A stretch of DNA of 36,091 nucleotides from Methanobacteriota archaeon (GCA_018645535.1 JABGWN010000052.1:1-36091), one strand, 5' to 3'. Positions 16,893 to 19,726 are shown, numbered from the stretch's first letter. Numbers and translations are program-made. Notes: generated by a model not told the origin, from the letters alone.

Positions 16893-17540
16893 TCAGCTGC
16901 CCTCCACAATAAGCCGGTAAGCAACAGCAGTACCAGCAGATTTGGAATGTCTCTTTACTTTCAGAACACGGTCTGCAATCCATCCCGCTGCGAGTGGGCG
17001 GTGTTCAGGATTTGCTGCAAGTGTTGCATTGTCGAGGAGTTCACAAGCCTCTTTGATGGCTTGAACAACGGGGTCTGAGATTAGGACTTTCGGGAGAAGT
17101 TCCTTTGCAAGACGTGGTTTTCCGTCTTCGTCGAGTTCTTCAAGACCCCAAGGAAGGAGTTCTTCCTTTTCCAAGTCATATTGCTCTTGTTCGCTGATGT
17201 TTGCCTCGCCGAGAAGTTCCTGATGAGGGACCAGTTCGTGGTTCAGGGGGTTGAAACGACTGGTTGCTTCAGGACGATCGAACTCGTCGATTGCTTTGGA
17301 GGAAATTGTGATTTTCTTGCTTCGCTTGTTACGAGAACGGCGGTTCCCTTGCTCGGCAATAATTTGCATAACTTTGGTGAAGGATTCGCTGTCTTTTGCG
17401 ATTCCAAGAATTTTTGCGACGTCGTCAGCAGGCATGGCCTTAATGTCGGCCATGTTTCTGTCCGTAGCCAATTTGTGGGCGTATTCGTCGGATACTCCGA
17501 GTTCGATTAGTCGCTTTTTTGTTGCGCTCTTTACTACCAT
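16893..17540 (-). CDS. rpoH: DNA-directed RNA polymerase subunit H, expanded (~215 aa) with N-terminal extension and two internal insertions
   Basis: The C-terminal part matches the RpoH/Rpb5 C-domain: HELVPHQELL ... LPKVLISDPVVQAI ... DRVLKVKRHSKSAGTAVAYRLIV. It is in first position of the rpo operon. ATG 17540 gives an [10 protein letters not shown]-terminus identical to that of RpoA''. The track start at 17555 is GTG. Confidence 0.85.
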   Translation of the reverse strand: MVVKSATKKRLIELGVSDEYAHKLATDRNMADIKAMPADDVAKILGIAKDSESFTKVMQIIAEQGNRRSRNKRSKKITISSKAIDEFDRPEATSRFNPLNHELVPHQELLGEANISEQEQYDLEKEELLPWGLEELDEDGKPRLAKELLPKVLISDPVVQAIKEACELLDNATLAANPEHRPLAAGWIADRVLKVKRHSKSAGTAVAYRLIVEGS

Positions 17541-17587
17541 CTCATTCAACCCCACTTCGCCCCAACGTCGTACTGCAGCGCATCAGG

Positions 17588-17661
17588 CGGGCCCGACGGG
17601 GTTCGAACCCGCGACCATCGGATTAAAAGTCCGACGCTCTACCTGACTGAGCTACGAGCCC
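17588..17661 (-). tRNA. tRNA-Lys (anticodon UUU), no encoded CCA
   Basis: The minus strand reads GGGCTCG-TA-GCTC-AGTCAGGTA-GAGC-G-TCGGA-CTTTTAA-TCCGA-TGGTC-GCGGG-TTCGAAC-CCCGT-CGGGCCC-G. This is a 74-nt cloverleaf with a 7-bp acceptor stem (one G-U), a GG in the D loop, and a TTCGAAC T loop. The anticodon loop is CU-UUU-AA. Confidence 0.88.
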
Positions 17662-17757: not shown

Positions 17758-19206
17758 ATGCCGACATTAGGGCAAAACGATTGGAATATGTTTGATGAAA
17801 AGAAAGCATTTCGAGAAATCGAATTGTTGGGTGGTGAAGCCAGAGAAATTCACTGGAAGAATTTCGACTTGATCGTACCTCATACTGTATATCCACCAAG
17901 AGAGGATACCGATCTTCTCGCAAGTGTCCTCGAGAAGGTCACACCCTTTGCCAAAAAGCGGCTTCTCGAAATCGGCAGTGGCTCGGGCGCTCTCTCGATT
18001 TTAGCAGCATCTATTGGATGGGAAGTAGAAGCCTGTGACATCAATCCGTTTGCAGTTGCTGCAACCCGATTCAATGCTCTTGAAAATAAGTTCCAAATCA
18101 TATCATCAGAGGGAGGTATCGGCCCGACCAAAGATGGACGTTCTTCACAATGGATGAAACCCGGCACCTATGACCTCGTGATGTGGAACATGCCTTACAT
18201 TCCTGCAGAGGAGATTGAAGAGTATCTTGGACCGTTGGAAGATGCGGCTTTGGTCGACACACATCCATCAGGTTTGTTGAGCAAGTTTGCTGATATGATG
18301 CGACGATTCCAAATTATTTCCCCTACAGGTCTCGCTCTCATCTTGTGCAGAGAGAACATCGGGGCGCTTCGAACACAAGACATACTTCTTGCAAATGGAT
18401 TAGCAACCCGAAAAGTATCAAAACGTACATTCGATGATGATGAAACCATCCAAGTACTTGCAGCATGGCATCCGTTTGTGAAGTCTAAGAAACAACAAAT
18501 GCATACTGTCCCTTCAACAAATTCGGAAATGCTTGAAGGATCCTACAAGCCAGGCGATTCCCTCCGAACAAGATTCCAAACTGGCGGAAAAGGACGCCAT
18601 GGTCGAACATGGGATGACCATCTTGACTCCTTCAAGGGAAGTTGGAAACTCAATCCTGACCGAATACCGCACATTTCGTCCCAATTGCAGTGCAAAGTTG
18701 CTCTTGAGATTGCTTCATTGCTGCAATCGATGGCGGCTGAGGAAGATGTCCTTCGAGTAAAGTGGCCAAATGATCTCCTCGTGCGGGACAGTAAATCCAA
18801 ACAATGGAAAAAAGCAGGGGGTATTCTCTTCCAATCACTCTCGAGAGGGACAGAACAATCTCTTGTTCTCGGCATCGGGATTAACACAAAAACAACCACT
18901 GATGTTCAAGGACGAGGCTCATTAGAAGAAATAGGGGTTGACCTCGACAATACTGAACTTTTTACCCTTCTTGACACCATTGTATCTTCCCTGTTTGAAA
19001 ACAAATCCAACTTGATGAATGTCTCGAGTGAAAGCACAGAACTCAACCTTGATTTATTACTTAGAGATTGCATCTATAGAAATAAAGAATGCACAGTTCG
19101 TGGTGTTTCTGATGAAGGAGAACTTCAAATTGAATCAGACAAAGGAGAATCCTTCGATATCTCTGATGATCTTAGTCTTCTTTGGCCTCATCTTCAACTT
19201 CAATAA
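17758..19206 (+). CDS. Fusion protein: HemK/Mtq2-like class I SAM-dependent methyltransferase (N-terminal) + biotin--protein ligase BirA-like catalytic and C-terminal domains
   Basis: MTase part: LIVPHTVYPPREDTDLLASVL, the SAM motif LLEIGSGSGALSILAA, and an NPPY-like VMWNMPYIP. BPL part: STNSEML..., the signature RFQTGGKGRHGRTWDD, KWPNDLLV, KKAGGILFQS and LGIGINT. One uninterrupted frame. The first ATG is at 17758; the track start at 17737 is TTG. Confidence 0.75.
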   Translation: MPTLGQNDWNMFDEKKAFREIELLGGEAREIHWKNFDLIVPHTVYPPREDTDLLASVLEKVTPFAKKRLLEIGSGSGALSILAASIGWEVEACDINPFAVAATRFNALENKFQIISSEGGIGPTKDGRSSQWMKPGTYDLVMWNMPYIPAEEIEEYLGPLEDAALVDTHPSGLLSKFADMMRRFQIISPTGLALILCRENIGALRTQDILLANGLATRKVSKRTFDDDETIQVLAAWHPFVKSKKQQMHTVPSTNSEMLEGSYKPGDSLRTRFQTGGKGRHGRTWDDHLDSFKGSWKLNPDRIPHISSQLQCKVALEIASLLQSMAAEEDVLRVKWPNDLLVRDSKSKQWKKAGGILFQSLSRGTEQSLVLGIGINTKTTTDVQGRGSLEEIGVDLDNTELFTLLDTIVSSLFENKSNLMNVSSESTELNLDLLLRDCIYRNKECTVRGVSDEGELQIESDKGESFDISDDLSLLWPHLQLQ

Positions 19207-19690
19207 TGGCATCCAGAATTTCTTCTGGTTCAACAGATTCGTTCATTCTTCTGTATAGACCATATCCTGCAAAAGCAAAACCAAGAAGATACGGGATGAA
19301 ATTTAATCCATAAGCACGAGACAAGTCTACGTCGACCTCTGCATTAACGCCTTCCTCTAGAGTAACAATCCATTCTAATTCTCCTCCATCTGATTCATGT
19401 TCGAGCTCAATATCCCCATCTGCAGAGACAATTTCCTTTTTTTCTTCGACTTCTTTGCCATCCTCAAAAATTTGAATTCGAACTTCAGATTCATTTTCTA
19501 CTAGGACAACAATTTTTACGAAATCCCCGTTGAACGAATTAGACATTCCTTCGAATAGTCCATCATCACCGTTGATTTTTGCAGGTTGATCCCATTCTTG
19601 AATGAATAATGTACCTATGATTAGCGTAACGCCAACGAGCAGAAACACGTCGCTAATCTTCAAAGGGGGAGCAGTCCCACCACCGGCCAT
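19172..19690 (-). CDS. Hypothetical bitopic/2-TM membrane protein with acidic extracytoplasmic domain and acidic C-terminus
   Basis: The ORF has TM helices VFLLVGVTLIIGTLFI and FIPYLLGFAFAGYGLY flanking a D/E-rich segment. ATG is at 19690; the track start at 19702 is TTG. I recognise no family. Confidence 0.45.
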   Translation of the reverse strand: MAGGGTAPPLKISDVFLLVGVTLIIGTLFIQEWDQPAKINGDDGLFEGMSNSFNGDFVKIVVLVENESEVRIQIFEDGKEVEEKKEIVSADGDIELEHESDGGELEWIVTLEEGVNAEVDVDLSRAYGLNFIPYLLGFAFAGYGLYRRMNESVEPEEILDAIIEVEDEAKED

Positions 19691-19726
19691 AGAACACTCC
19701 AAGAGGAATAGAATGAAAATGTTGTC

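What the first reader, a model, noticed from the sequence alone, without database searches (positions are those of the whole stretch)
17758..19206. Single-ORF fusion of a HemK/Mtq2-like methyltransferase with biotin-protein ligase
Residues ~1-235 carry the archaeal HemK-related methylase hallmarks: VYPPREDTDLL, LEIGSGSGALS, and NMPY in place of NPPY. From residue ~245 on, the protein is a class-I BirA lacking the HTH: STNSEML, GGKGRHGRTW, KWPNDLL, GIGIN, plus a C-terminal SH3-like end. I know of no described MTase-BPL fusion. It could couple biotinylation with methylation of the same or an interacting target, or the MTase-like domain could replace the regulatory N-terminal domain of bifunctional BirA.
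Basis: partly seen in the sequence, partly recalled or inferred. Interest (0 to 1): 0.6.

Follow-up and report, generated by a model that had tools for sequence, protein, structure and literature searches.

The report
Methyltransferase fused to biotin ligase
One gene of this marine archaeon (Marine Group II, Poseidoniales) joins the lineage's only release-factor-type protein methyltransferase to its only biotin-attaching enzyme; the join is real, ancient and kept throughout the order, but nothing yet shows that the two activities are coupled.

Summary
Window 17758-19206 (+) is one open frame of 482 aa; the likely start is M11 at 17788, giving 472 aa. Residues ~36-238 are an Mtq2/HemK2-type SAM N-methyltransferase. 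Residues ~248-482 are a complete class-I biotin protein ligase with no HTH. About nine residues link them.

It is not an assembly artefact. The same unbroken frame occurs in 103 of 105 sampled genomes of the order. In the sister order and the rest of the phylum the two halves are separate, unlinked genes. A domain tree puts all fused methyltransferase domains on one side of a branch with 95% support, consistent with one origin.

Both halves look active. The catalytic motifs are invariant or nearly so, and dN/dS is about 0.06-0.11 in each. The methyltransferase half is the better conserved. Its NPPY motif has become W-N-[L/M/I/T/P]-P-Y. It is the only Mtq2-like gene in these genomes, and no Trm112 was found.

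Two EAMKM biotin carrier proteins are present. aRF1 with GGQ is present in a same-genus relative.

Most likely it is a bifunctional enzyme with two independent jobs: aRF1 glutamine methylation and carboxylase biotinylation. Coupling or retargeting is not excluded. I found no paper describing the fusion, and public annotations name only one half.

The parts
17788..19206 (+). Probable coding sequence of the fusion protein (472 aa plus stop). The alternative upstream ATG at 17758 gives 482 aa. Residue numbers in this report count from 17758.
   Evidence: ORF list and translation. Homologues start at M11. M1 is not conserved in G002 and G018. pLDDT is below 50 for residues 1-12.
17788..17862 (+). 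N-terminal extension (res 11-35): a helix (14-24) and the first strand (29-33) of a beta-hairpin that continues into the methyltransferase core. Absent from the stand-alone Mtq2 of the sister order.
   Evidence: AF2 secondary structure. F12, E20, I21 and W33 are invariant within the family-level alignment A1. The sister-order protein starts directly before VYEP.
17863..18471 (+). Mtq2/HemK2-type class-I SAM-dependent N-methyltransferase domain (res 36-238).
   Evidence: PRK14968 at 31-237, TIGR00537 and PrmC hits. Pfam MTS. The A1 profile gives human N6AMT1/HEMK2 as the best methyltransferase match among solved structures, E 1e-10, res 34-224; residue alignment. Foldseek TM 0.72-0.78 normalised to N6AMT1.
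17887..17910 (+). VYPPREDT motif (res 44-51). Equivalent to VYEPAEDT of N6AMT1, the N-terminal SAM/substrate lid motif of the HemK family.
   Evidence: Alignment to N6AMT1. V44, Y45, P47 and D50 are at least 90% conserved across the order.
17965..17988 (+). Motif I, LEIGSGSG (res 70-77): the SAM-binding glycine loop.
   Evidence: G73, G75 and G77 are invariant in A1 and at least 90% conserved in A2.
18031..18048 (+). ACDINP (res 92-97): the post-I acidic residue D94, which binds the SAM ribose in class-I MTases, plus N96 and P97.
   Evidence: D94, N96 and P97 are invariant in A1 and at least 90% conserved in A2. Aligns with CTDINP of N6AMT1.
18184..18198 (+). Motif IV, W-N-M-P-Y (res 143-147): the catalytic amino-methyltransferase motif, NPPY in canonical Mtq2.
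   Evidence: W143, N144, P146 and Y147 are invariant in A1. Across the order the motif reads W-N-[L/M/I/T/P]-P-Y, while stand-alone relatives have [C/F]-N-P-P-Y.
18472..18498 (+). Short inter-domain linker (res 239-247, PFVKSKKQQ). It has no conserved internal start codon.
   Evidence: Alignment: M248 is V/I/F/L in other members. pLDDT is 93-95 through the junction and pTM is 0.87.
18499..18927 (+). Biotin protein ligase catalytic domain (res 248-390).
   Evidence: Pfam BPL_LplA_LipB. TIGR00121. Profile vs PDB gives BirA at E 2e-20 and the class-I BPLs of Aquifex, Pyrococcus and Methanocaldococcus.
18586..18612 (+). Biotin/biotinyl-AMP binding loop G-K-G-R-H-G-R-T-W (res 277-285). Equivalent to GRGRRGRKW of E. 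coli BirA (the numbering and motif of BirA are from my own knowledge).
   Evidence: G277, G279, R280, G282 and W285 are invariant in A1.
18760..18774 (+). KWPND (res 335-339), containing the conserved catalytic lysine of BPLs.
   Evidence: K335, W336, P337, N338 and D339 are invariant in A1. W, P, N and D are at least 90% conserved in A2.
18871..18885 (+). GIGIN (res 372-376), the adenylate-binding glycine motif of BPLs.
   Evidence: G372, G374 and N376 are invariant in A1 and at least 90% conserved in A2.
18928..19203 (+). C-terminal region of the ligase (res 391-482): helices followed by a small beta-barrel (strands 437-468), the SH3-like cap domain of class-I BPLs. It is the least conserved part.
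   Evidence: NF006206 (archaeal BPL) aligns 248-473 to 16-239 of 243. AF2 strands. Foldseek aligns 249 columns to the 235-aa P. horikoshii BPL, TM 0.72. Mean pairwise identity 36%; dN/dS 0.16-0.21.
17586..17661 (-). tRNA-Lys(UUU), the conserved divergent neighbour just upstream (context, not part of the enzyme).
   Evidence: ARAGORN. Over-extended database gene calls of homologues begin with the antisense translation of this tRNA gene.

Best explanation
The gene encodes a bifunctional protein-modifying enzyme of about 472 aa with two intact active sites on one rigid polypeptide.

The N-terminal half is the Poseidoniales orthologue of Mtq2/HemK2. It uses S-adenosylmethionine to N-methylate an amide or amino group. 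Its most likely target is the glutamine of the GGQ motif of release factor aRF1, without a Trm112 partner.

The C-terminal half is a class-I biotin protein ligase. It makes biotinyl-5'-AMP and transfers biotin to the lysine of the EAMKM motif of the two biotin carrier proteins. One belongs to a methylcrotonyl-CoA-carboxylase-like cluster and the other sits next to a propionyl-CoA/methylmalonyl-CoA carboxyltransferase.

The fusion arose once at the base of the order from two unlinked genes. It has been kept since, plausibly as a genome-streamlining co-expression of two low-abundance housekeeping modifiers rather than because the reactions are coupled.

Shown here: the architecture, the motif conservation, purifying selection on both halves, the taxonomic distribution, sole-copy status and the presence of substrates. 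Inferred: both catalytic activities, the identity of the methyl acceptor and the independence of the two reactions.
For: 1. One frame, both families hit.

2. Distribution. 39 of 41 relatives and 103 of 105 genomes of the order carry one open frame spanning both halves. In the sister order of the class and in about 95 genomes of other families of the phylum, the halves are separate genes of about 200 aa and 210-280 aa on different contigs.

3. Single origin. In a tree of 103 methyltransferase domains, all 76 fused domains fall on one side of a branch (SH-aLRT 95). All 18 genuine stand-alone proteins fall on the other. The short 'alone' rows nested among the fused ones lie at tips next to fused sequences and are probably contig-end fragments.

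4. Sole copy. In the single-contig genomes G039 and G044 and the other Poseidoniales genomes tested, the fused domain is the best and only real hit to TIGR00537, at 44-60 bits. Two sister-order genomes have a 197-199-aa stand-alone hit at 122-125 bits. P0001 finds one locus per genome, so it is also the only BPL.

5. Catalytic motifs are invariant or at least 90% conserved across the order: VYPP, GxGxG, D94, N144/P146/Y147, STN, G277xGRxG..W285, KWPND, GxGxN.

6. Selection. dN/dS is 0.06-0.11 for the MTase, 0.07-0.11 for the BPL core and 0.16-0.21 for the C-terminus. The MTase half is more conserved than the BPL core in 167 of 190 pairs and in the family-level alignment, 58% vs 50%.

7. Structure. 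AF2 gives pLDDT 86 and pTM 0.87 with a confident junction. The halves match P. horikoshii BPL (TM 0.72) and human N6AMT1 from its TRMT112 complex (TM 0.78). The sequence profile agrees.

8. Substrates exist. There are two EAMKM carrier proteins with their carboxylase partners in this genome. aRF1 with in-frame GGQS is present in a same-genus genome.

9. Literature. Mtq2 orthologues are reported in all archaea. In Haloferax volcanii, aRF1 GGQ methylation in vivo needs Mtq2 but not Trm112 (PMC6144793). Poseidoniia genomes are reported as enriched in gene fusions generally (PMC11237513).
Against: - No biochemical or expression data exist for any member.
- The MTase half scores below the curated cut-offs of every Mtq2/HemK model (50 vs 87 bits for TIGR00537).
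- The MTase half carries order-wide signature changes next to the active site: NPPY to N-x-P-Y with an invariant preceding Trp, VYEPAED to VYPPRED, loss of the GG after the E-x-A motif, and an added N-terminal helix/hairpin. These would also fit a changed substrate.
- The very short, confidently modelled linker and pTM of 0.87 suggest a fixed two-domain body rather than beads on a string. A purely accidental fusion would not require that.
- The parent genes are not neighbours in any outgroup examined, so simple read-through of adjacent genes does not explain the origin.
- aRF1's GGQ region could not be seen in this genome itself, where only a contig-edge fragment is present.
Confidence: 0.6

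Rival explanations
1. Retargeted methyltransferase in a two-site machine. After fusion, the Mtq2-derived domain changed or broadened its substrate. It now N-methylates a Gln or Lys of something the ligase half holds, such as the biotin carrier domain, a carboxylase subunit or the ligase itself. Methylation and biotinylation would then be mechanistically or regulatorily linked.
For: Order-wide changes flank the active site: W-N-[LMITP]-P-Y, VYPPRED, a lost GG and a new N-terminal hairpin. Scores fall below the Mtq2 model cut-offs while the sister order scores 122-125 bits. The junction is rigid and confidently modelled, with pTM 0.87. The MTase half is the most conserved part. The human family member HEMK2 methylates both glutamine (eRF1) and lysine (H4K12) (PMC10804810), so lysine targets are chemically within reach of this fold.
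Against: It would leave the order without any aRF1 GGQ methyltransferase, although Mtq2 is reported as universal in archaea (PMC6144793). Overall identity of the fused domain to stand-alone Mtq2 (about 31%) equals that between two stand-alone Mtq2 of different orders (32%), so divergence is not exceptional. In NPPY-type enzymes the residue at the variable motif position is thought to contact the substrate through its backbone (my knowledge of the family). One member still has NPPY. No candidate methyl-acceptor motif was found in the carrier proteins, which have an ordinary EAMKM context.
Confidence: 0.2
2. Built-in activator. The ligase body, or the extra N-terminal hairpin, replaces Trm112 as the stabilising partner of Mtq2. 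The fusion would then be obligate for methyltransferase solubility or activity, while the substrates stay the canonical ones.
For: No Trm112 was found in any of 20 genomes of the order. Their only PF03966 hits are sub-threshold zinc ribbons in open frames of about 310-340 aa; I read the G000 one as TFB. Small Trm112 genes (open frames mostly 55-95 aa, 31-56 bits) are found in many other families of the phylum, including f27, whose Mtq2 is the closest outgroup. The domain arrangement is rigid.
Against: The sister order also lacks a detectable Trm112. Its weak hits are the RNA polymerase subunit P zinc ribbon next to L37Ae, or fall in TFB-sized frames. Yet it keeps a stand-alone, canonical NPPY Mtq2, so Trm112 independence does not need the ligase. 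In H. volcanii, Mtq2 works in vivo without Trm112 (PMC6144793). I could not inspect the model's interface because no coordinates are available.
Confidence: 0.12
3. Pseudo-enzyme accessory domain. The methyltransferase fold no longer catalyses anything. It serves as an N-terminal structural, regulatory or SAM-sensing domain of the ligase, analogous to the N-terminal domain of class-II BirA or of eukaryotic holocarboxylase synthetase.
For: Its position, N-terminal to the catalytic core with a short linker, mimics class-II BirA. NPPY is not strictly kept. It scores below the family cut-offs.
Against: All SAM-binding and catalytic residues are invariant or at least 90% conserved across an order whose members share only about 30-40% identity. 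dN/dS is about 0.1, and the domain is more conserved than the ligase core. There is no other Mtq2 in the genomes.
Confidence: 0.05
4. Artefact. Two adjacent genes were joined by a missed stop, a frameshift or a chimeric assembly in this MAG.
For: The window comes from a fragmented, 76%-complete MAG. One relative (G037) shows two ORFs.
Against: The same continuous frame occurs in over 100 independently assembled genomes, including single-contig ones. It also appears in 451 protein clusters and in about 60 representatives at 50% identity. The G037 split is a one-base indel in a GGGGGAGGG run; reading it one G shorter gives ...WKPGEGVEPIVIDSTNSTMEDAK, which matches the fused relatives. In outgroups the two genes are not even neighbours.
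Confidence: 0.01

Closest known systems
Class-I (monofunctional) biotin protein ligases, e.g. Pyrococcus horikoshii BPL (PDB 1WNL; complex with BCCP 2EJF/2EJG), Aquifex aeolicus BPL (3EFS) and Methanocaldococcus jannaschii BPL (2EJ9)
   Same: Catalytic core plus small C-terminal cap domain, and no DNA-binding domain. The biotin loop GxGRxGRxW, KWPND and GxGxN are all present. Foldseek TM is about 0.72 over the whole 235-aa target. Profile E-values are 1e-16 to 1e-19.
   Different: It carries an N-terminal extension of about 240 aa that is a complete methyltransferase. It scores 70.6 bits, below the 83.1 cut-off of TIGR00121. BPL_C (PF02237) is not detected by sequence.
Mtq2 / HEMK2 (N6AMT1, KMT9) with Trm112: the archaeal/eukaryotic release-factor GGQ glutamine N5-methyltransferase (H. 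volcanii Mtq2, PMC6144793; human N6AMT1-TRMT112, PDB 6KMR/6K0X/6H1D)
   Same: Same fold and size. The motifs VY.P.ED, E.G.G.G, D.NP, N.PY and E.A are colinear. It is the best methyltransferase match among solved structures by sequence and by fold, with TM 0.72-0.78. It is the only such gene in the genome.
   Different: NPPY is replaced by W-N-[L/M/I/T/P]-P-Y. No Trm112 is present in the genome or the order. It is fused to a ligase. It falls below the TIGR00537 and PRK14968 cut-offs. It has an additional N-terminal helix/hairpin.
Other natural BPL fusions: BPL/type III pantothenate kinase (NCBIfam NF009862; an example is P0263) and PycA-BPL of Methanocella (PMC11237513)
   Same: A biotin ligase core joined to a second enzyme in one polypeptide, restricted to particular lineages.
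   Different: The partner and the order differ. In the BPL-kinase fusion seen here (P0263) the ligase is N-terminal. Both known partners have a cofactor or biotin-enzyme logic (CoA synthesis, pyruvate carboxylase). Here the partner is N-terminal and belongs to the translation-termination apparatus, with no known link to biotin.
Class-II BirA (E. coli BirA, PDB 1BIA/1HXD), the bifunctional ligase/repressor
   Same: A three-part layout of N-terminal extra domain, catalytic core and C-terminal cap. It gives the best sequence match for the core, E 2e-20. Some public records of homologues are named this way.
   Different: The N-terminal domain is not a winged helix-turn-helix but a Rossmann-fold methyltransferase. 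No HTH family was hit, so no repressor function is expected.
PrmA, ribosomal protein L11 methyltransferase (the name given to the 84%-identical NCBI record)
   Same: They share only the generic SAM-binding region: PF06325 matches res 57-113, profile positions 154-210 of 296.
   Different: NCBIfam prmA models score 27-36 bits against cut-offs of 183-327. There is no PrmA N-terminal substrate domain. The public name is a mis-annotation.

Membership tests
Biotin protein ligase, class I (EC 6.3.4.15) | BPL_LplA_LipB catalytic domain above the Pfam gathering score | tested here: met
   PF03099 at res 253-376, 41.6 bits vs cut-off 21.
Biotin protein ligase, class I (EC 6.3.4.15) | Biotin/bio-AMP loop GRGRxGRxW, the catalytic lysine in KWPND, and GxGxN | tested here: met
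   GKGRHGRTW (277-285), KWPND (335-339) and GIGIN (372-376). The key residues are invariant in 39 homologues and at least 90% conserved across the order.
Biotin protein ligase, class I (EC 6.3.4.15) | Small C-terminal SH3-like cap domain | tested here: inconclusive
   PF02237 (BPL_C) is not hit. However, NF006206 aligns through res 473, AF2 shows four beta strands at 437-468, and Foldseek aligns 249 columns to the full 235-aa 1WNL.
Biotin protein ligase, class I (EC 6.3.4.15) | Absence of an N-terminal DNA-binding HTH | tested here: met
   No HTH family in Pfam or NCBIfam for residues 1-247, which are a methyltransferase.
Biotin protein ligase, class I (EC 6.3.4.15) | Score above the NCBIfam equivalog-domain cut-off (TIGR00121) | tested here: not met
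   70.6 bits vs 83.1.
Biotin protein ligase, class I (EC 6.3.4.15) | Cognate biotin acceptor proteins present in the genome | tested here: met
   A 155-aa and a 181-aa carrier protein with EAMKM, next to a biotin carboxylase and carboxyltransferases.
Biotin protein ligase, class I (EC 6.3.4.15) | ATP-dependent biotinylation activity | not testable with these tools
   Needs an enzyme assay or complementation of an E. coli birA(ts) laboratory strain.
Mtq2 / HemK2 (archaeal-eukaryotic release factor glutamine N5-methyltransferase) | Class-I SAM methyltransferase fold with motif I and the post-I acidic residue | tested here: met
   LEIGSGSG and D94 are conserved. Foldseek TM 0.72-0.78 to N6AMT1.
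Mtq2 / HemK2 (archaeal-eukaryotic release factor glutamine N5-methyltransferase) | NPPY catalytic tetrapeptide | tested here: not met
   N-M-P-Y here. It is N-[L/M/I/T]-P-Y in 19 of 20 sampled members of the order and NPPY in one. Stand-alone relatives have NPPY. N, P and Y are invariant.
Mtq2 / HemK2 (archaeal-eukaryotic release factor glutamine N5-methyltransferase) | Score above the curated cut-off of TIGR00537 (hemK_rel_arch) or the PRK14968 models | tested here: not met
   50 vs 87 bits and 69 vs 162 bits. The sister-order stand-alone genes score 122-125 bits.
Mtq2 / HemK2 (archaeal-eukaryotic release factor glutamine N5-methyltransferase) | Orthology: sole and best Mtq2-like gene of the genome, sister to stand-alone Mtq2 | tested here: met
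   It is the only real TIGR00537 hit in the single-contig genomes G039 and G044. The fused domains form one group opposite the stand-alone archaeal proteins.
Mtq2 / HemK2 (archaeal-eukaryotic release factor glutamine N5-methyltransferase) | Trm112 partner protein | tested here: not met
   There is no PF03966 hit over the cut-off in G000 or in 20 genomes of the order. Trm112 is present in many other families of the phylum and in 4 archaeal control genomes. Trm112 is not universal among archaea (PMC6144793).
Mtq2 / HemK2 (archaeal-eukaryotic release factor glutamine N5-methyltransferase) | Substrate aRF1 with a GGQ motif present | tested here: inconclusive
   G000 holds only a contig-edge C-terminal fragment of aRF1. 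Same-genus G002 and G039/G044 have full aRF1 (439-443 bits), and G002 has in-frame GGQS.
Mtq2 / HemK2 (archaeal-eukaryotic release factor glutamine N5-methyltransferase) | Methylation of the GGQ glutamine | not testable with these tools
   Needs an in vitro methylation assay or mass spectrometry.
Class-II BirA (ligase/repressor) | N-terminal winged helix-turn-helix that binds the bio operator | tested here: not met
   No HTH was detected. BirA models align only from their position ~76-88 onward, that is, the catalytic core.
PrmA (L11 methyltransferase; the public annotation of close homologues) | Full-length match to the PrmA models, including the N-terminal substrate-binding domain | tested here: not met
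   Only the SAM-binding segment matches (PF06325 positions 154-210 of 296). NCBIfam prmA scores are 27-36 bits against cut-offs of 183-327.

The most novel reading that the evidence does not exclude
The fusion is an obligate functional unit peculiar to Marine Group II archaea. The Mtq2-derived domain has an altered active-site surround (W-N-x-P-Y, VYPPRED, new N-terminal hairpin) and is rigidly docked on the ligase. It has been retargeted or dual-targeted to a Gln or Lys on the biotin carrier, the carboxylase or the ligase itself. SAM-dependent methylation would then gate or accompany biotinylation. Alternatively the ligase body is the built-in Trm112 substitute. Either way, this would be the first natural link between protein methylation and protein biotinylation.
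Probability: 0.2. Interest if true: 0.75.

Novelty: new variant of a known kind. Interest (0 to 1): 0.45.

Why it matters
Marine Group II archaea are among the most abundant planktonic archaea and none is cultured. An order-wide, single-origin fusion of their only release-factor-type methyltransferase with their only biotin ligase is a clean molecular synapomorphy. It is also a correction to public annotation, where records call it L11 methyltransferase, BirA repressor, biotin ligase or release-factor methyltransferase and name only one half.

For enzymologists it offers two things. One is a natural Mtq2 that works, if it works, without Trm112 and with a non-canonical N-x-P-Y motif. The other is a new class of BPL N-terminal domain.

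If the halves are coupled, it would reveal an unknown link between SAM-dependent methylation and biotin-dependent carboxylation. If not, it is a good example of streamlining by fusion of unrelated housekeeping enzymes, and a warning against reading function from 'Rosetta stone' fusions.

Tried and rejected
- **First attempt to fetch relatives' DNA.** It failed with a busy machine and was repeated successfully.
- **Trm112 in the sister order.** The weak PF03966 hits turned out to be the 46-aa zinc-ribbon RNA polymerase subunit P next to L37Ae. The hit in this genome lies in TFB. They were rejected as Trm112.
- **Apparent 386-666-aa open frames around the closest outgroup methyltransferases (f27 and others).** These were suspected as alternative fusions. 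They are ordinary Mtq2 genes of about 200 aa with NPPY, lying directly after ksgA in three loci of two families. The long frames are a high-GC artefact.
- **The one 'split' relative, G037.** This is a single-base indel in a G-run, not a fission.
- **The 670-aa and 510-560-aa 'long' homologues.** These are the same fusion with N-termini over-called through the antisense of the upstream tRNA-Lys gene. P0182 additionally carries low-complexity insertions.
- **The archaeal fusion catalogue (PMC11237513), main text and supplements.** It contains no methyltransferase-BPL entry that I could find.
- **A regex search for aRF1 in this MAG.** It found nothing because only a contig-edge fragment is present.
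- **Inspecting the AF2 inter-domain interface.** This was not possible because model coordinates are not exposed.
- **dN/dS for L005/L006.** These values were discarded because those loci are in the opposite orientation.
Full report
**1. What is in the sequence**

Window 17758-19206 (+) is one open frame of 482 aa with no internal stop.

Pfam places BPL_LplA_LipB at residues 253-376 (41.6 bits, cut-off 21). It places the small methyltransferase domain MTS at 51-147 (27.2 bits, cut-off 23).

NCBIfam gives birA_ligase (TIGR00121) at 248-429 and an archaeal BPL model (NF006206) running to residue 473. It also gives the archaeal 'putative methyltransferase' PRK14968 models at 31-237, PrmC, and hemK_rel_arch TIGR00537. 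All are highly significant but lie below the curated equivalog cut-offs.

The first ATG is probably not the start. The two closest relatives have Ala or Ile at that codon but share the Met at residue 11. Most homologues are 470-472 aa and start there. AF2 has no confidence in residues 1-12. I therefore take 17788-19206 (472 aa) as the gene. Residue numbers below still count from 17758.

**2. It is not an artefact**

A word-indexed search of 5.8 billion proteins found 451 homologues. The listed full-length hits are 470-508 aa at 98% down to 37% identity, and nearly all carry both Pfam families. Their public names are inconsistent: '50S ribosomal protein L11 methyltransferase [Candidatus Poseidoniales archaeon]', 'Bifunctional ligase/repressor BirA [Candidatus Poseidoniaceae archaeon]', 'biotin--[acetyl-CoA-carboxylase] ligase' and 'release factor glutamine methyltransferase'.

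Whole-genome searches gave the following:
- 39 of 41 close relatives have one open frame spanning both halves.
- 103 of 105 genomes of the window's order, across its families, have the same. This includes single-contig genomes.

The single 'split' case (G037) is a one-base indel in a GGGGGAGGG run. Read one G shorter, the frame continues as ...WKPGEGVEPIVIDSTNSTMEDAK, which matches the fused relatives.

An exhaustive HMMER scan of 1.84 billion representatives finds about 60 fused representatives of 430-560 aa. After those comes a gap to fragments, and then separate methyltransferases of about 200 aa and ligases of about 240 aa at E of about 1e-11 to 1e-15.

**3. Where the fusion occurs**

In the sister order(s) of the same class, the two halves are separate genes on different contigs:
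- The methyltransferase is a 191-aa protein with canonical VYEPAEDS ... CNPPYL. It scores 122-125 bits on TIGR00537, above the cut-off.
- The ligase is a 212-aa class-I BPL.

In about 95 further genomes of other families of the phylum, there are again only separate, unlinked matches. The closest outgroup methyltransferases (family f27) looked as if they sat in long frames. They are ordinary NPPY Mtq2 genes of about 200 aa directly downstream of ksgA, in high-GC genomes.

A maximum-likelihood tree of 103 methyltransferase domains puts all 76 fused domains on one side of a branch (SH-aLRT 95). All 18 genuine stand-alone proteins fall on the other side. The few short rows nested among fused tips are probably contig-end fragments.

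The fusion therefore arose once, at or before the base of the order (Poseidoniales / Marine Group II, by the names). It arose from genes that are not neighbours in any outgroup seen. Its genomic place is conserved: it lies divergently next to tRNA-Lys, rpoH and rpoB.

**4. Are both halves alive?**

Motif conservation. In 39 family-level homologues the invariant columns include:
- VYPP, G73/G75/G77, D94-x-N96-P97 and W143-N144-x-P146-Y147 in the methyltransferase.
- S253-T254-N255, G277-x-G279-R280-x-G282..W285, K335-W-P-N-D339 and G372-x-G374-x-N376 in the ligase.

In 20 sequences spanning the whole order (27-39% identical to the window protein), the same residues are at least 90% conserved.

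Relative conservation. The methyltransferase half is the better conserved:
- 58% vs 50% mean pairwise identity within the family.
- 42% vs 36% across the order.
- Higher in 167 of 190 pairs.

Selection. Nei-Gojobori dN/dS among four same-genus genes is 0.06-0.11 for the methyltransferase, 0.07-0.11 for the ligase core and 0.16-0.21 for the C-terminal region.

Structure. AF2 with this alignment gives pLDDT 86 and pTM 0.87, with pLDDT 93-95 through the nine-residue linker. That points to a fixed two-domain body. Foldseek matches the C-terminal half to Pyrococcus horikoshii BPL (TM 0.72 over the whole 235-aa chain). It matches the N-terminal half to human N6AMT1/HEMK2 taken from its TRMT112 complex (TM up to 0.78). 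No solved chain covers both halves. Sequence profiles agree: BirA 2e-20, N6AMT1 1e-10. The residue alignment lines up VYEPAEDT/VYPPREDT, LEVGSGSG/LEIGSGSG, CTDINP/ACDINP and FNPPYV/WNMPYI.

**5. What is unusual about the methyltransferase half**

Across the order, motif IV reads W-N-[L/M/I/T/P]-P-Y. Only one of 20 sampled members keeps NPPY. Stand-alone relatives have [C/F]-N-P-P-Y.

An N-[I/L]-P-Y form is the normal motif IV of KsgA/Erm adenine-N6 methyltransferases. This genome's own KsgA has ANIPYQ. So N-x-P-Y remains compatible with N-methyl transfer; that is my inference.

Other order-wide signatures are:
- VYPPRED in place of VYEPAED.
- LGPLEEAAL-D without the following GG.
- An added N-terminal helix and hairpin.

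Overall divergence is not exceptional. The fused domain is about 31% identical to stand-alone Mtq2, the same as two stand-alone Mtq2 of different orders (32%).

It is the only Mtq2-like gene. In the single-contig genomes G039 and G044 and the other genomes of the order tested, the fused domain is the best TIGR00537 hit (44-60 bits). The next hits are unrelated methyltransferases such as KsgA.

**6. Partners and substrates**

Trm112, the usual Mtq2 activator, is absent:
- In this genome, the only PF03966 hit (sub-threshold) falls in the zinc ribbon of TFB. The other genomes of the order give similar sub-threshold hits in frames of about 310-340 aa.
- In the sister order the hits are RNA polymerase subunit P or fall in TFB-sized frames.
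- Many other families of the phylum do have a small Trm112 (open frames mostly 55-95 aa, 31-56 bits), including f27.

Trm112 loss therefore covers the whole class and does not coincide with the fusion. This weakens, but does not exclude, the idea that the ligase replaces Trm112.

From the literature (PMC6144793):
- Mtq2 orthologues occur in all archaea.
- H. volcanii aRF1 is methylated on GGQ in vivo in an Mtq2-dependent, Trm112-independent way.
- Trm112 is missing from several archaeal orders.

aRF1 is present at 439-443 bits in G002, G039 and G044, and G002 has an in-frame GGQS. This MAG holds only a contig-edge fragment.

For the ligase, the genome encodes two carrier proteins with the canonical EAMKM biotinylation site:
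- One of 155 aa sits in a cluster with a 501-aa biotin carboxylase, an enoyl-CoA hydratase and a carboxyltransferase. This cluster is methylcrotonyl-CoA-carboxylase-like.
- One of 181 aa sits behind a 526-aa propionyl-/methylmalonyl-CoA carboxyltransferase.

P0001 finds only one locus per genome, so this is also the only BPL.

**7. Interpretation**

The simplest account is a bifunctional enzyme whose halves keep their ancestral, unrelated jobs: aRF1-GGQ methylation and carboxylase biotinylation. Two low-abundance housekeeping protein modifiers were fused once in a lineage reported to be enriched in gene fusions (PMC11237513). I give this about 0.6.

The alternatives below are ranked in the rivals section.

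- Retargeted or dual-target methyltransferase. This is favoured by the altered active-site surround, the rigid junction and the fact that HEMK2 can methylate lysine as well as glutamine (PMC10804810). It is disfavoured because it would leave the order without the otherwise universal aRF1 methyltransferase.
- Ligase as built-in Trm112 substitute. See section 6.
- Pseudo-enzyme accessory domain. This is disfavoured by motif invariance and dN/dS.

**8. Novelty**

The sequences are in public databases but each is annotated for one half only. Full-text searches found no description of a methyltransferase-BPL fusion. Neither did the archaeal fusion catalogue or its supplements. Known BPL fusions are with type III pantothenate kinase (NF009862; P0263) and with PycA in Methanocella.

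Earlier notes of this scan flagged the same fusion in at least 30 other genomes and reached the same reading. They are not independent evidence. I re-derived the distribution and motif results here and added the following:
- The phylum-wide Trm112 census.
- Per-domain dN/dS.
- The single-origin tree.
- The start-codon correction.
- The explanation of the one 'split' copy.

I class it as a new variant (domain architecture) of known kinds, of moderate interest.

Noticed in passing
window 16893-17555 (-): The RpoH (Rpb5-like) homologue is 220 aa, but Pfam RNA_pol_Rpb5_C covers only residues 101-216, and stretches 73 profile positions over 116 residues. There is an N-terminal extension of about 100 aa ([17 protein letters not shown]...), which is conserved in the neighbours of the fusion gene in G039, G044 and G037. 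Archaeal RpoH is normally only about 80 aa (my knowledge).
   Followed up: partly
window 17586-17661 (-); P0167, P0173, P0182: tRNA-Lys(UUU) lies between rpoH and the fusion gene. Several database gene calls of homologues begin 'MLG.PRTEGGFKN', which is the antisense translation of this conserved tRNA gene. Their N-termini are therefore over-extended by 50-80 residues.
   Followed up: partly
L036:2965-3020 (G037:C1): The only relative with the two halves as separate ORFs has a one-base indel in a GGGGGAGGG run in the linker. Read one G shorter, the frame continues across the junction. It is either an assembly error or a very recent frameshift.
   Followed up: yes
window 19172-19206: The 3' end of the fusion gene overlaps by 35 nt a convergent 176-aa ORF (19172-19702, -). 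That ORF is a predicted membrane protein with no Pfam hit. A likely counterpart of 163 aa lies beside the fusion gene in G044.
   Followed up: no
L021, L022, L026, L030, L031, L033 (relatives): In several members of the order the biotin loop reads GRGQ.. instead of GRGR... The changed arginine corresponds to E. coli BirA R118, whose mutation gives the 'leaky' promiscuous ligase used for BioID (my knowledge). Natural Q at this site might mean weaker retention of biotinyl-AMP.
   Followed up: no
genome contigs C1 (198-3699) and C242 (974-3167): There are two biotin-dependent enzyme clusters with free-standing small carrier proteins. C1 has a carboxyltransferase, an enoyl-CoA hydratase, a 501-aa biotin carboxylase and a 155-aa carrier. 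C242 has a 526-aa carboxyltransferase and a 181-aa carrier. In relatives the second carrier lies 13-20 kb from the fusion gene, a loose synteny.
   Followed up: partly
L048 and L049 (f27), L050 (G218): In these three loci from two families of the phylum, the stand-alone Mtq2 gene lies immediately downstream of ksgA/dim1 (overlapping or abutting). This linkage is absent in Poseidoniales, where Mtq2 is fused to BPL and ksgA is elsewhere (contig C232 in this genome).
   Followed up: no
P0204 (2494 aa): A giant 2494-aa protein from the representative library carries an Mtq2-like domain at residues 2170-2321 (37% identity to the window's domain, four matched stretches). Its origin and meaning are unknown, and it sits on a long branch in the tree.
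   Followed up: no
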